Shown here in pieces: positions 60,094 through 63,782 of a stretch of DNA of 64,000 nt. Below the pieces are notes generated by a model. The model saw only the letters and a list, made by a program, of their open reading frames with translations. It was not told the DNA's origin and did not search any database. The number at the start of each line of letters is the position of its first letter. Position 1 is the first letter of the stretch. The DNA is from Eledone cirrhosa (taxonomy: Eukaryota), in NCBI GenBank assembly GCA_964016885.1, contig OZ024740.1, positions 442,246,001 through 442,310,000 on the forward strand, in the 5' to 3' direction. Both the position numbers and the translations under genes were made by a program.

Positions 60094-61424
60094 ATAAAAC
60101 GAAAAATCAGTGATGCATCTGGACTCAGTTTATTGTGTGTTACAATTGTTTCGCCGGCAGATAGCTCGAGACACGATCATTGTATGGATCTGTCTGATTC
60201 TAGATCTGCAGGTTCTTCGGACACATGCAATACTTTCGGAACAAATTTTCTCACTTGGGTGTTAGCTTAAAAAAACATCTTCCTCTCTTGTCTTGCTATT
60301 GGCTGTTGTTTTTCTTCGTCATCATAAATTCTGGTCAATATTTGCTGGCATATATATATATATATATATATATATATATATATATATATATATATATATA
60401 TATATATATATATATATATATATATATATATATGCATACATACACACGTATATATATATATATATATATATATATATATATATATATAAATGAAAAAGTA
60501 TAGAAATAATTGTAGCAAGAAGCCAACAGTATTCCATAATATATGTGACTATAGCGTCAAAATGGAAAAAATAGTTAACGTAAGATGTGGGAAAATAATT
60601 CAAACTCAATTCAAAAAGAATCAGCATATAGATTCATCCACAGAATTTGGTGAAATCCAGGGAAAAATCAATAGAGCCTTAACTCAGAATAAAATAAATT
60701 TAAAATACTCATCCTTCAATTTGGAAAAACTACAAATGCTCTGTATAGTCTTAAAAAATACTATTTCACGGAACTTTCAGTGGGGATGGTCACGGTTGGA
60801 ATCGATCATCAGCAGAGCTCAAGACACGATAACCAAAGTCCCACTGTTTATAATATGCCAAAAAGGGAATTTAAAAGCAGGCTAGTTCAACATCATGCGT
60901 AATTATGAAGATAAACGCACAGGGCTGGTGACGTCAGAATGAGACGAATGTCTGTTTACATGAAATAACAGTAAAAAAACATTCCGAAAAAAAACTCTAC
61001 ATATAAGGAGTTCAGCAAAAGCAATATTATCGCGGTTTAAAAAAAAAATAGACGGGGACTAGTCACAAATAATTTTAAGCACTCTAGGAAAGAAATATAT
61101 ATATATATATAATATATATATATAATTTTAAGCACTCTAGGAAAGAAATATATATATATATATATAATATATATATATATATATATATATATATATATAT
61201 ATATATATATATATATATATATATATATATATATATATATATATATATATATATATCAAAGGCATATATTGAGTTAGAAACTCAAAATAGTCTCTTACAA
61301 TAAATTAGCTCTAGGAAAGAGATTTTTCCGAGCCGTATAATATAACTGAACAAAAATATATACATATACGCACACTATCCAGTTTTTTAATATAATTAGA
61401 AGTGACCAGGATACTAATAATTCT

Positions 61425-61505
61425 TCACCCGCTGATGAGCAAGATTTTGGTATTCCCCTTCACAATTAATATTGCGAAACAGTATTATCAAAACTGTCCA
61501 GGTGA
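61425..61505 (+). ncRNA. Type I hammerhead ribozyme, copy 1
   Basis: tcacccg-CTGATGA(61432)-gcaa..ttgc-GAAA(61476)-cagt..actg-TC-caggtga; GUC triplet at 61496-61498. Confidence 0.8.
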
Positions 61506-61942
61506 TTGGTAGTTACCACAATTCCGGTTTGTATTTATTTTCTTGGCTTATTCTTAAATTGAGTCTGGCAAACCCTATTGTCTATAGTTAGTATTCTCTT
61601 CACCTTAGCGAATCTGGACCCTTACGATTTGAGCACATATATGTATATGTCTGTGTTTCCTTTTCTTTTTTGTTCAGTTATATTATACGGCTCGGAAAAA
61701 ATCTTTCCTAGAGCTAATTTATTGTAAGAGACTATTTTGAGTTTCTAACTCAATATATGCCTTTGATATATTCGGCTCCGTTAATTCGTCGAACTAATTC
61801 GAATGTCGAGTAAACCCGGCTGCTATTTTTAGTGGCGTGAGTGCGAGACACGCTAAGTTCTGATACCATGTGCGTTGTTATATATACGCACACTATCCAG
61901 TTTTTTAATATACTTAGAAGTGACCAGGAAACTAATAATTCT

Positions 61943-62023
61943 TCACCCGCTGATGAGCAAGAATTTGGTATTCCTCTTCACAATTAATATTGCGAAACAG
62001 TATTATCAAAACTGTCCAGGTGA
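61943..62023 (+). ncRNA. Type I hammerhead ribozyme, copy 2
   Basis: Same core and stems as copy 1, GUC at 62014-62016; differences are confined to the distal stem II/loop region. Confidence 0.8.
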
Positions 62024-63782
62024 TTGGTAGTTACCATAATTCTCGTTTGTACTTATTTTCTTGATTTATTCTTAAATTGAGTCTGGCAAACCCTATTGTC
62101 TATAGTTAGTATTCTCTTCACCTTAGCGAATCTGGACCCTTACGATTTGAACACGTATATGTATATGTCTGTGCTTTTCTTTCTTGTTCAATTATATATT
62201 ATATATCTATATCTATCTATATATATATATATATATATATATATATATATATAATCCATATCGAGCCCGCTTCGGATTTTAGTCTTCATATTTATTATTA
62301 CTGTGTGTGTGTATATATATATATATATATATATATGTGTGTGTGTGTGTGTGTGCGTGTTTGTGTGTGTGTGCCTCTGCACGTTTTTGTGTGGTTGCTC
62401 GTGTAAGGTTGTAAGATGTAAATCTCTTTTCTAAACCTGAAATCTTAACGATGTTATATTAATAGGTTTTGAAGTTCTTAGATAACTGCGACCTCTGTAT
62501 TTCAAAATACATTTATTTATTCTAATTCCTGTCCAACTATTACCTCAAGATGGACGCCATCAATTTTTTTTTTTTATCCAGGAGTGTAAAATGTATTACT
62601 TGTGACGCTGTCTAAAATTTTGTTTGAAAGTTAATGACTTTCTTGAACAATTGAATAAAAGTTCTCCAACTGATAATATCAAGTTTGAAGCATTTATACG
62701 AAAAACTACTTAATTTCTCTGTTAGCAAATCACAGGAACCGTGGGATTGATATTCGAAACGAGTATTTTGATTTCTGACCGAATGGACTGACATTGCACG
62801 AACTCCAGTGACCCCGAATTAATCACTTTTATATAATCGATATAAAATATCTGTCCACGGCTATGATTACTTGAACTTGTCGCTCGGTTCAGTTTACGTA
62901 GCAGGTTACTTTAAATGTTGCATTACGTCTGAGTAAATATCTCTAAATAGAGAATTCTGTAACAAAAGCTGACGATTAAATGCCCGAGTGTGAGTGTAGT
63001 AGAGTGAACAGCGTAAAATATACGTCAGGTGGAGAGAAAACGTTGAAATGTAACTCGTATAATCTCAAATAACATATATGGACATCATATTACTATTAAC
63101 GAGAGATGATGACCTGGAACAGATGACGAAAAAGACGAAATATAAATAAAGATTAATTTTATATACTTTGACAAATCGGGACAAGTATAACATTATGGTG
63201 GAAGTTCGGCTTCAGACAGCAGTAAATTGTGTAAACTTATGCTGGCTCAGATATCATGCCTAAAAGGTTATGCCACTGATCGCATTGGGTTAGTCCCTTC
63301 AATTTCCCCAGTTGGGTTCGATGACCTTTTAGCTACAGTGTGTATCTTTATTGATGGATGGGGAAACGTTGCTTGATATCTCCCTTGGTCCCGCTGTGTT
63401 GATCCAATGACGTCAATGGATATATTCAGAGGGAATATGACATTCCAAAGCACCGCAATTATGAACCAAGAACGGTTAAAGTTTGACAGTAATAGCTGTT
63501 TTCATCATCCTGTATTTCGCTTAGAAAGACTTTGGCATAAATACATAATATAAAGTCATCTGTGACTGTCTAAATGTTAAATCTTTCCTAACAAATAAAG
63601 ATACAAACATTAGGAAAAATGCAATATGAAATTAGAAAACTTTTAACATGTTTACATAGAAAATTTCTATTAAAAAACTAAGGTAACTTAAACAATCGAT
63701 ATGCCATTTTGAAATATAGAACTGTATGATAAGGAAATACACTGATTGAGAAACACGTTCAGACTTGGTCTGCCGCCATTAG

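What the first reader, a model, noticed from the sequence alone, without database searches (positions are those of the whole stretch)
61252..62196. Tandem canonical hammerheads 518 nt apart: retrozyme-like unit that could release a circularisable RNA
Seen: two complete type I hammerheads (CUGAUGA, GAAA, 4-bp stem III, GUC, stem I with one mismatch) with predicted cleavage after 61498 and 62016. They lie in a partial tandem repeat with no ORF, preceded by a ~105-bp inverted copy of an internal segment and flanked by (TA)n. Substitutions between the copies avoid the core. Known: retrozymes and PLE pLTRs use paired hammerheads to excise monomer RNAs that can circularise, and tandem-plus-inverted ends are a PLE integration signature. 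Inference: a non-autonomous ribozyme-processed retroelement, probably mobilised by PLE enzymes like those whose relics lie in this window. With the other motifs, at least three hammerhead families co-occur here.
Basis: partly seen in the sequence, partly recalled or inferred. Interest (0 to 1): 0.75.

Follow-up and report, generated by a model that had tools for sequence, protein, structure and literature searches.

The report
Hammerhead retrozyme borrowing Hydra Penelope enzyme
Two hammerhead-ribozyme motifs 518 bases apart mark one aged, damaged copy of a non-coding repeat with hundreds of copies, whose ends carry the insertion footprint of Penelope-type jumping genes and resemble the predicted start signals of their Hydra branch, so it likely borrows that enzyme and would likely be copied from a self-cut RNA circle; cutting and circles are untested.

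Summary
In detail: two type I hammerheads 518 nt apart, a partial tandem, a 105-bp inverted arm, (TA)n flanks and no ORF. It is one of about 850 or more dispersed copies of a roughly 500-nt unit that runs round on itself; diverged relatives show compensatory changes in stem I. Copies end at two fixed sites about 85 nt apart, and head-to-head arms use one each (58 of 60; 15 of 15 in a sister family). That is the Penelope 'tail' footprint. The tail region aligns with the pLTR of one Hydra-clade family (z 6.3-6.8), and a hairpin after the second site is shared with 5 of 6 Hydra families and none of the Neptune or Nematis-like loci. No copy is joined to an upstream ORF. Verdict: a non-LTR retrozyme family, likely mobilised by a Hydra-clade enzyme, probably from a cut-and-ligated circle (inferred). 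This copy has a stem I mismatch and a damaged hairpin. 'Substitutions avoid the core' is chance (P=0.55). The kind is known, and this scan reported the one-sided tail and the Hydra hairpin on other DNA.

The parts
61095..61256 (.). (TA)n tract, left target flank
   Evidence: family arms that end at E1 or E2 run into (TA)n as a rule
61257..61356 (-). Inverted arm (unit positions 307-411); its outer end is the second fixed end E2, so this arm carries the tail
61361..61878 (+). One full 518-nt unit (u1-518); u1 is only where this copy is 5'-truncated, the unit runs on round itself in other copies
61425..61505 (+). Type I hammerhead 1: stem I 61425-31/61499-505 (C-A mismatch at pair 2), core 61432-38, stem II 61439-42/61472-75, GAAA 61476-79, stem III 61480-83/61493-96, predicted cleavage after 61498
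61499..62016 (+). Predicted 518-nt monomer (36% GC; circular MFE -117.6 kcal/mol, z -2.6 vs 60 shuffles)
   Evidence: release untested
61683..61714 (+). First fixed end E1 (about u323-327, inferred RT start site 1) and the GCTC/GAGC hairpin after it
61688..61771 (+). Tail of about 85 nt between E1 and E2; aligns with the tail of Hydra-like family H4
61775..61794 (+). Hairpin after E2 (GCTCC...GTTGAGC type) shared with Hydra-clade pLTRs; damaged in this copy
   Evidence: damage:
61815..61876 (+). Further predicted hairpins of the C segment, kept across diverged families
61879..62199 (+). Second, partial unit (u1-323), ending at E1 without the tail
61943..62023 (+). Type I hammerhead 2, same C-A mismatch, predicted cleavage after 62016
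62197..62253 (.). (TA)n/TCTA tract, right target flank

Best explanation
This is one aged copy of a dispersed, non-coding repeat family with a roughly 518-nt hammerhead-bearing unit, likely a non-LTR retrozyme pasted in by a borrowed Hydra-clade Penelope enzyme and likely copied from a self-cut, re-ligated RNA circle. Shown in the sequence: the unit continues round on itself in every copy examined, carries no ORF, lands in (TA)n, and ends at two fixed sites (E1, E2), one per arm of head-to-head insertions. Inferred steps: (1) a rare copy with two intact hammerheads is transcribed, by an unidentified promoter or read-through; (2) the ribozymes cut out a monomer and a host ligase closes it; (3) a Hydra RT/GIY-YIG protein, probably a dimer, binds the hairpins after E1 and E2 and nicks both strands of a TA tract; (4) one nick primes at E1 and the other at E2; (5) the two cDNAs run back, up to about two turns, stop, and are joined head to head by microhomology. 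My odds: non-autonomous and PLE-moved about 0.92; Hydra clade about 0.8; circle as main template about 0.6. The window copy itself is probably a poor source.
For: Copy number: 307 exact pattern matches, control 0; about 850 after correction, from 13 of 36 ribozymes matching exactly in 41 loci not chosen on the ribozyme; 547 for a looser pattern, control 0. Fixed ends: 79 E1, 75 E2 and 50 other of 204 arms in 105 loci. Of 97 tight head-to-head pairs in 148 loci, 60 had both ends classed and 58 were E1+E2 (p 2e-15); sister family 15 of 15 among 21 pairs. Autonomous PLEs here show the same one-sided tail: 7 of 7 Neptune-like and 3 of 3 Nematis-like two-ended loci. PMC11167929 (parts 1-2 read) equates the tail with two internal RT start sites and calls it unique to PLEs. 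Partner: window and two family copies align to the H4 pLTR at z 6.3-6.8, 0 of 300 dinucleotide shuffles, and H4's own E1 and E2 fall at the aligned places. The hairpin motif is in 37 of 50, 7 of 29 and 15 of 29 Hydra loci and in 0 of 106 Neptune or Nematis-like loci. The partner proteins carry the Hydra motifs RWK/RWR, DKT and CxCX5C (PMC8557442 section 11). Ribozyme selection: 97.5% of cells paired, 6 of 7 stem I pairs with double changes, 0 of 500 shuffles, in 24 sequences. Circle: 125 of 242 arms cross the cleavage site; arms reach 1056 and 963 nt upstream of E2, yet the one array of three ribozymes found is a later DNA duplication; arms within a locus share rare alleles (12 vs 3.3 expected, direct; 51 vs 7.8, inverted).
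Against: Nothing here shows cleavage or a circle. In PMC11167929 ribozyme cleavage was not needed for insertion in vitro and unprocessed RNA was the main substrate; in the 2026 preprint only 1 of 9 retrozyme dimers cleaved. The Hydra similarity is weak in blind searches: E 7.5 as top hit, absent at E<=10 in the larger search, and E 0.001-0.01 only without the composition correction, where a Neptune locus scores 0.034. H4 was picked after I saw the likeness; the sister family and L274 score only z 2.0 and 2.9; H6 lacks the exact motif. The hammerheads of the Hydra families read here (H1, H2, H4) differ from this one. One locus (L119) fuses an arm to a Neptune ORF by 3-nt microhomology. Only 40 of 3447 candidates were scored for long arrays, so a master array could be missed. 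After insertion the core decays like its flanks (15 of 385 vs 127 of 3504). In this copy the hammerhead fold costs about 7.4 kcal/mol (family median 6.1), and the four stem pairs checked have probabilities <=0.38 and <=0.04 in a whole-insertion fold.
Confidence: 0.58

Rival explanations
1. Same non-autonomous, PLE-moved family, but the template is linear: an uncleaved multimeric transcript, or cleaved monomers bridged by template jumps. The hammerhead then trims RNA or hitchhikes and circles are incidental.
For: PMC11167929: cleavage-dead RNA inserted equally well in vitro. 5' ends pile up just 3' of the cleavage site (16 of 81 arm-bins at risk) and none fall just 5' of it (0 of 62), against 134 of 1188 overall, as if some templates had an end there. 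Direct tandems share fewer rare alleles than inverted arms (0.07 vs 0.12, p 0.08).
Against: A linear source for 960-1050-nt arms needs more than two units plus sequence past E2, and none was found apart from a DNA duplication. No repeat-position-specific differences recur. The pile-up is also explained by microhomology hot spots and a hairpin, and its bins were chosen after I saw the data. Stem I keeps compensating across families.
Confidence: 0.3
2. All copies are 5'-truncated ends of an autonomous Penelope-like element not yet found.
For: PLE insertions are mostly 5'-truncated and look like this (PMC8557442). Only nine PLE families were sampled, 150 top hits each at most.
Against: Upstream of the ribozyme, arms run into the unit's own C segment, tail and ribozyme, never into an ORF. 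Among 127 loci, 9 had a sense PLE hit within 1300 nt upstream: 5 are separated by the opposite arm or a TA tract and 4 are 84-102-nt hits of one query that begins with translated TA repeat (judged, not inspected one by one). In Hydra elements the ATG follows the hairpin within about 60 nt.
Confidence: 0.05
3. The element is PLE-moved, but by a Neptune- or Nematis-like enzyme rather than Hydra.
For: Both insert in (TA)n with a one-sided tail; L119 is a retrozyme-Neptune fusion; both have young or abundant families.
Against: No similarity of their tails to the unit (z -1.3 to 1.4); hairpin motif in 0 of 106 loci, though not all of these loci include a pLTR; L386 is a like fusion to a Hydra ORF.
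Confidence: 0.05
4. The tandem and the inverted arm at this locus arose by local DNA duplication and fold-back.
For: Such a duplication did occur at L378 (units 99.5% alike).
Against: The two window copies differ by 4.4%, like other tandems of the family, and the ends fall on the family's E1 and E2.
Confidence: 0.02

Closest known systems
Metazoan non-LTR retrozymes (Cervera and de la Pena 2020, PMC7229834; abstract, Results parts 1-2 of 3 and Discussion read)
   Same: Non-coding unit, GC under 50%, a canonical type I hammerhead in each repeat, co-occurring with PLEs, which the authors propose as the mobiliser.
   Different: 518 nt against about 170-400 nt; mostly dispersed copies of under two units rather than arrays; inverted arms and a one-sided tail (the words 'tail' and 'inverted' do not occur in that text); no expression or cleavage data here.
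Retrozymes as non-autonomous PLE derivatives (bioRxiv 10.64898/2026.07.22.740005; parts 1-3 of 5 read, supplements not seen)
   Same: Size within their 51-972 bp; many monomeric copies; similarity to PLE pLTRs.
   Different: Their link rests on co-occurrence and pLTR similarity in Xenopus. Here it rests on the integration footprint and on likeness confined to the two inferred RT start sites, and it points to the Hydra clade ('tail' 0 occurrences).
Hydra-clade Penelope-like elements (Craig et al. 2021, PMC8557442; passages, section 11 and supplement part 2 read)
   Same: (TA)n target, partial tandem plus inverted arm, tail at one end, canonical hammerhead; 4 of 25 listed Hydra families have the same ACAG/CTGT stem III.
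   Different: No ORF; tail of 76-88 nt against the 30-40 nt described (about 60-100 nt in this genome's PLEs); longer loops II and III.
Poseidon PAc of Anolis (Frangieh et al. 2024, PMC11167929; parts 1-2 of 4 read)
   Same: Two fixed internal start sites bounding a tail; AT-rich target; both strands cut and extended.
   Different: Autonomous. In vitro the two start sites were used alike on both strands, whereas these insertions pair one E1 with one E2 almost without exception.

Membership tests
Non-LTR retrozyme | Type I hammerhead in each repeat unit | tested here: met
   (structure by pattern and covariation; Rfam misses it)
Non-LTR retrozyme | Head-to-tail repeats with at least two complete hammerheads | tested here: met
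   rare in the family: the only same-strand pair within 1 kb among the first 100 of 307 listed matches
Non-LTR retrozyme | No protein coding; GC under 50% | tested here: met
   longest ATG frame 39 aa; GC 36%
Non-LTR retrozyme | Monomer of about 170-400 nt (2020 description) | tested here: not met
   518 nt; inside the 51-972 bp of the 2026 preprint, so I do not treat it as excluding
Non-LTR retrozyme | No PBS or PPT | not tested
   no search was made
Non-LTR retrozyme | Target-site duplication, when present longer than 4 bp | tested here: inconclusive
   cannot be read in (TA)n flanks
Non-LTR retrozyme | Self-cleavage of the RNA | not testable with these tools
   folding only
Non-LTR retrozyme | Linear and circular monomer RNA in vivo | not testable with these tools
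   needs RNA data
PLE-type insertion | Partial tandem with 5'-truncated upstream copy and adjacent inverted copy | tested here: met
   76 head-to-head pairs in 105 loci; 32 of 204 arms longer than 530 nt
PLE-type insertion | Tail on one end only (two fixed ends) | tested here: met
   58 of 60 and 15 of 15; longer than the 30-40 nt described
Autonomous PLE | RT plus GIY-YIG ORF in cis | tested here: not met
Hydra clade (the proposed partner proteins) | RWK, DKT, CxCX5C linker, no CCHH, (TA)n target, canonical hammerhead | tested here: met
   motif scan of six families (RWK not caught in the one H2 copy scanned); hammerheads seen in H1, H2 and H4; no tree was built
Hydra-dependent element | Shared start-site signals with a Hydra pLTR | tested here: inconclusive
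   strong in anchored tests and motif census; not significant in blind nhmmer with default correction

The most novel reading that the evidence does not exclude
A 518-nt ribozyme-made RNA circle has kept only the two start-site hairpins of a Hydra-clade Penelope element. A dimeric Hydra enzyme primes once at each hairpin, one per target strand, and copies round the circle, so every insertion records rolling-circle reverse transcription and a fixed division of labour between two RT subunits. This would name the enzyme that moves an animal retrozyme and give a minimal RNA substrate for the unresolved PLE integration mechanism.
Probability: 0.35. Interest if true: 0.7.

Novelty: new member of a known kind. 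Interest (0 to 1): 0.42.

Why it matters
Which enzyme moves animal retrozymes, and whether their circles are the template, has been proposed but not shown. This family adds genomic evidence: the PLE-specific two-site footprint on a retrozyme, and a short list of cis-signals shared with one PLE clade whose intact young ORFs exist in the same genome. That makes a direct in vitro test possible with a 518-nt RNA. I found no paper with this link in six literature searches, but most subscription papers, Repbase and Dfam were not searched. As a kind it is known, and this locus is a decayed copy.

Tried and rejected
Rfam: no hammerhead match. Expression: no RNA holder listed; the three runs laid were contigs of one sample and study, of unrecorded kind, and served only to show variant letters. 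Core conservation after insertion: a small set suggested it (2 of 209 vs 190 of 4142, p 0.008; a second set 7 of 363 vs 195 of 7287, p 0.5), but the larger rare-allele test did not, so I dropped it. An apparent 5' end at u1 was a BLAST edge effect. An apparent pile-up at the cleavage site in the sister family came from a deletion in my reference copy. The three-ribozyme locus L378 is a later DNA duplication, not evidence of rolling circle. Whole-unit blastn against Hydra H1-H3, two Neptune-like and one Nematis-like family found no homology, and local alignment of a longer window segment against H1, Neptune-2 and Nematis ends was within shuffle range. Pol III transcription looks unlikely for a full monomer, which holds six runs of four or more T (termination rule recalled). 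A genome-wide count of two-ribozyme loci was not obtained; ranks only 40 of 3447 candidates. Look-alikes in earlier findings by sequence: none.

Full report
Observation. The coordinates and motifs are as stated. Two type I hammerheads have cores at 61432 and 61950 and predicted cuts after 61498 and 62016; the direct repeat is 61361-61687 against 61879-62203, and the inverted arm 61251-61356 matches 61667-61771 at 105 of 106 positions. A structural scan finds 6 such sites in the window and none in 20 shuffles. Rfam misses them. The two copies differ at 13 of 295 positions, so missing the 13 core bases has P=0.55 and is no evidence. I call the 518-nt unit u1-518 (window 61361-61878).

Family. 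The genome is 3.0 Gb; I did not establish the taxon. An exact ribozyme pattern has 307 matches, control 0. In 41 loci not chosen on the ribozyme, 13 of 36 ribozymes match it exactly, which gives about 850 copies, probably a lower bound because these are top-scoring loci. A looser pattern gives 547 matches across diverged families; the 50 such loci I fetched are 61-88% like the unit and share its layout. The median nearest-neighbour distance among 136 pieces is 3.9%, so most of the activity is old. Across 24 sequences, 97.5% of cells pair and 6 of 7 stem I pairs show double changes, against 0 of 500 shuffles (stems II and III were partly fixed by my search pattern, and the sequences are related). 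Within the family, pair I.1 is G-C in 42 and A-U in 42 of 100 loci. The fold was therefore kept in the replicating lineages. After insertion the core decays like its flanks (15 of 385 vs 127 of 3504; a smaller test had pointed the other way).

No ORF in cis. Going upstream from the ribozyme, arms pass u1 into u518 and on through the unit's own tail. Among 127 loci, 9 had a sense PLE hit within 1300 nt upstream. Five are separated by the opposite arm or a TA tract, and four are short hits of a query that starts with translated TA repeat.

Integration footprint. Arms end at about u323-327 (E1, 79), about u411 (E2, 75) or elsewhere (50) of 204, and E1 and E2 ends run into (TA)n as a rule. Of 97 tightly joined head-to-head pairs in 148 loci, 37 have an end at neither site and were set aside; of the other 60, 58 pair E1 with E2. 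The sister family gives 15 of 15 among 21 pairs. The window fits: left arm E2, right arm E1. Autonomous Neptune-like (7 of 7) and Nematis-like (3 of 3) two-ended insertions behave alike. Frangieh et al. (PMC11167929) showed that the PLE tail is the stretch between two internal RT start sites and that both target strands are extended. I infer twin priming, once at each site.

Partner. I sampled six Hydra-like, two Neptune-like and one Nematis-like family (motifs, Hydra criteria from PMC8557442; the labels Neptune-like and Nematis-like rest on those motifs and on recall). Just after E2 the unit has a GCTCC...GTTGAGC hairpin. The same motif stands before the start codon in five of six Hydra families and in 0 of 106 Neptune or Nematis-like loci, not all of which include a pLTR. 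The E1-tail-E2 stretch of the window and of two other copies aligns with family H4 at z 6.3-6.8, and H4's own ends fall at the aligned places. Against this: H4 was chosen by eye; two more distant copies score z 2.0 and 2.9; blind nhmmer is not significant with default correction; and the ribozymes of H1, H2 and H4 differ from this one, although 4 of 25 published Hydra families share its stem III. H4 had no open frame above 750 aa among 150 hits, so it looks decayed too. One arm is fused to a Neptune ORF (L119) and one to a Hydra ORF (L386); neither decides.

Template. 125 of 242 arms cross the cleavage site (many were selected to), so a single cut linear monomer is not enough. Arms reach 1056 and 963 nt upstream of E2. 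A linear source would need more than two units, and the only three-ribozyme locus among the 40 scored is a later DNA duplication. Pieces within a locus share rare alleles above chance, with no recurring upstream-versus-downstream differences. This favours a circle, or jumps between monomers. 5' ends are over-represented just 3' of the cut site and absent just 5' of it (16 of 81 and 0 of 62 vs 134 of 1188), but microhomology and a hairpin could cause that. In PAc, cleavage was dispensable in vitro. Circle is my best guess, at about 0.6.

This copy. Two-ribozyme loci are rare: this is the only same-strand pair within 1 kb among the first 100 listed matches. Both of its ribozymes share a C-A mismatch beside the cut, seen in 5 of 100 loci. 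Its E2 hairpin is altered, whereas 62 of 80 copies keep the GAGC. The ribozyme fold costs about 7.4 kcal/mol and is poorly populated in a fold of the whole insertion, where the inverted arm pairs at 0.998. It may still cut during transcription; that is untested.

Comparison and verdict. It works like, and by sequence criteria belongs with, animal non-LTR retrozymes (PMC7229834; the 2026 preprint, whose supplements I could not see and which may list related families). It exceeds the 2020 size range, and cleavage and circles could not be tested. PLE mobilisation was proposed in 2020 and supported in 2026. What this adds is the tail footprint and a clade-level partner; neither retrozyme text mentions a tail. 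Unreviewed notes of this scan already report the one-sided tail on another genome's retrozyme and the Hydra tail hairpin in this genome; I saw them after my own results. New member of a known kind; interest 0.42.

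Noticed in passing
window 60489-61095, minus strand: A second non-coding hammerhead mini-element abuts the finding (core at 60812, predicted cut at 60744), with a Hydra-type tail fragment by eye; a relative with direct and second partial arm lies in L318.
   Followed up: partly
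window 2454-2502 (+), 11355-11311 (-), 16115-16069 (-): Single hammerheads with short stem III followed by (TA)n, resembling 3' ends of Hydra-type elements.
   Followed up: partly
window about 12780-13937 (+), 58-715 (-), 18283-18900 (-): Relics of Hydra-clade ORFs; the first keeps its pLTR tail and start hairpin and is 86% like family H1.
   Followed up: partly
window 20941-52127: A 31-kb satellite of about 1114 copies of a 28-bp unit.
   Followed up: no
window 3149-8551 (-), 9000-10169 (-), 54147-55385 (+): Pieces of a LINE-like element; the 788-aa frame matches Pfam RVT_1 at E 1e-23.
   Followed up: no
L119:3521-3526 and L386:2664-2665: Retrozyme arms fused without a TA tract to 5'-truncated Neptune-like (3-nt microhomology) and Hydra-like ORFs; template switch or later deletion.
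   Followed up: partly
L311-L330 (Neptune-like family 2), 3' UTR: A young family with many intact 775-aa frames has a hammerhead-shaped motif whose core departs from CUGANGA.
   Followed up: no
L451-L480 (Hydra-like family H6): Very young family (99% identical, many 830-aa open frames), often in arrays spaced about 6-7 kb; it lacks the exact start hairpin motif.
   Followed up: partly
L432:2570-2715 and L400:2977-3038: More distant non-coding relatives of the unit, found by profile.
   Followed up: no
L035, L042, L045, L054-L056; L061, L094, L095: One insertion each, multiplied with its flanks (segmental duplication); counted once.
   Followed up: yes
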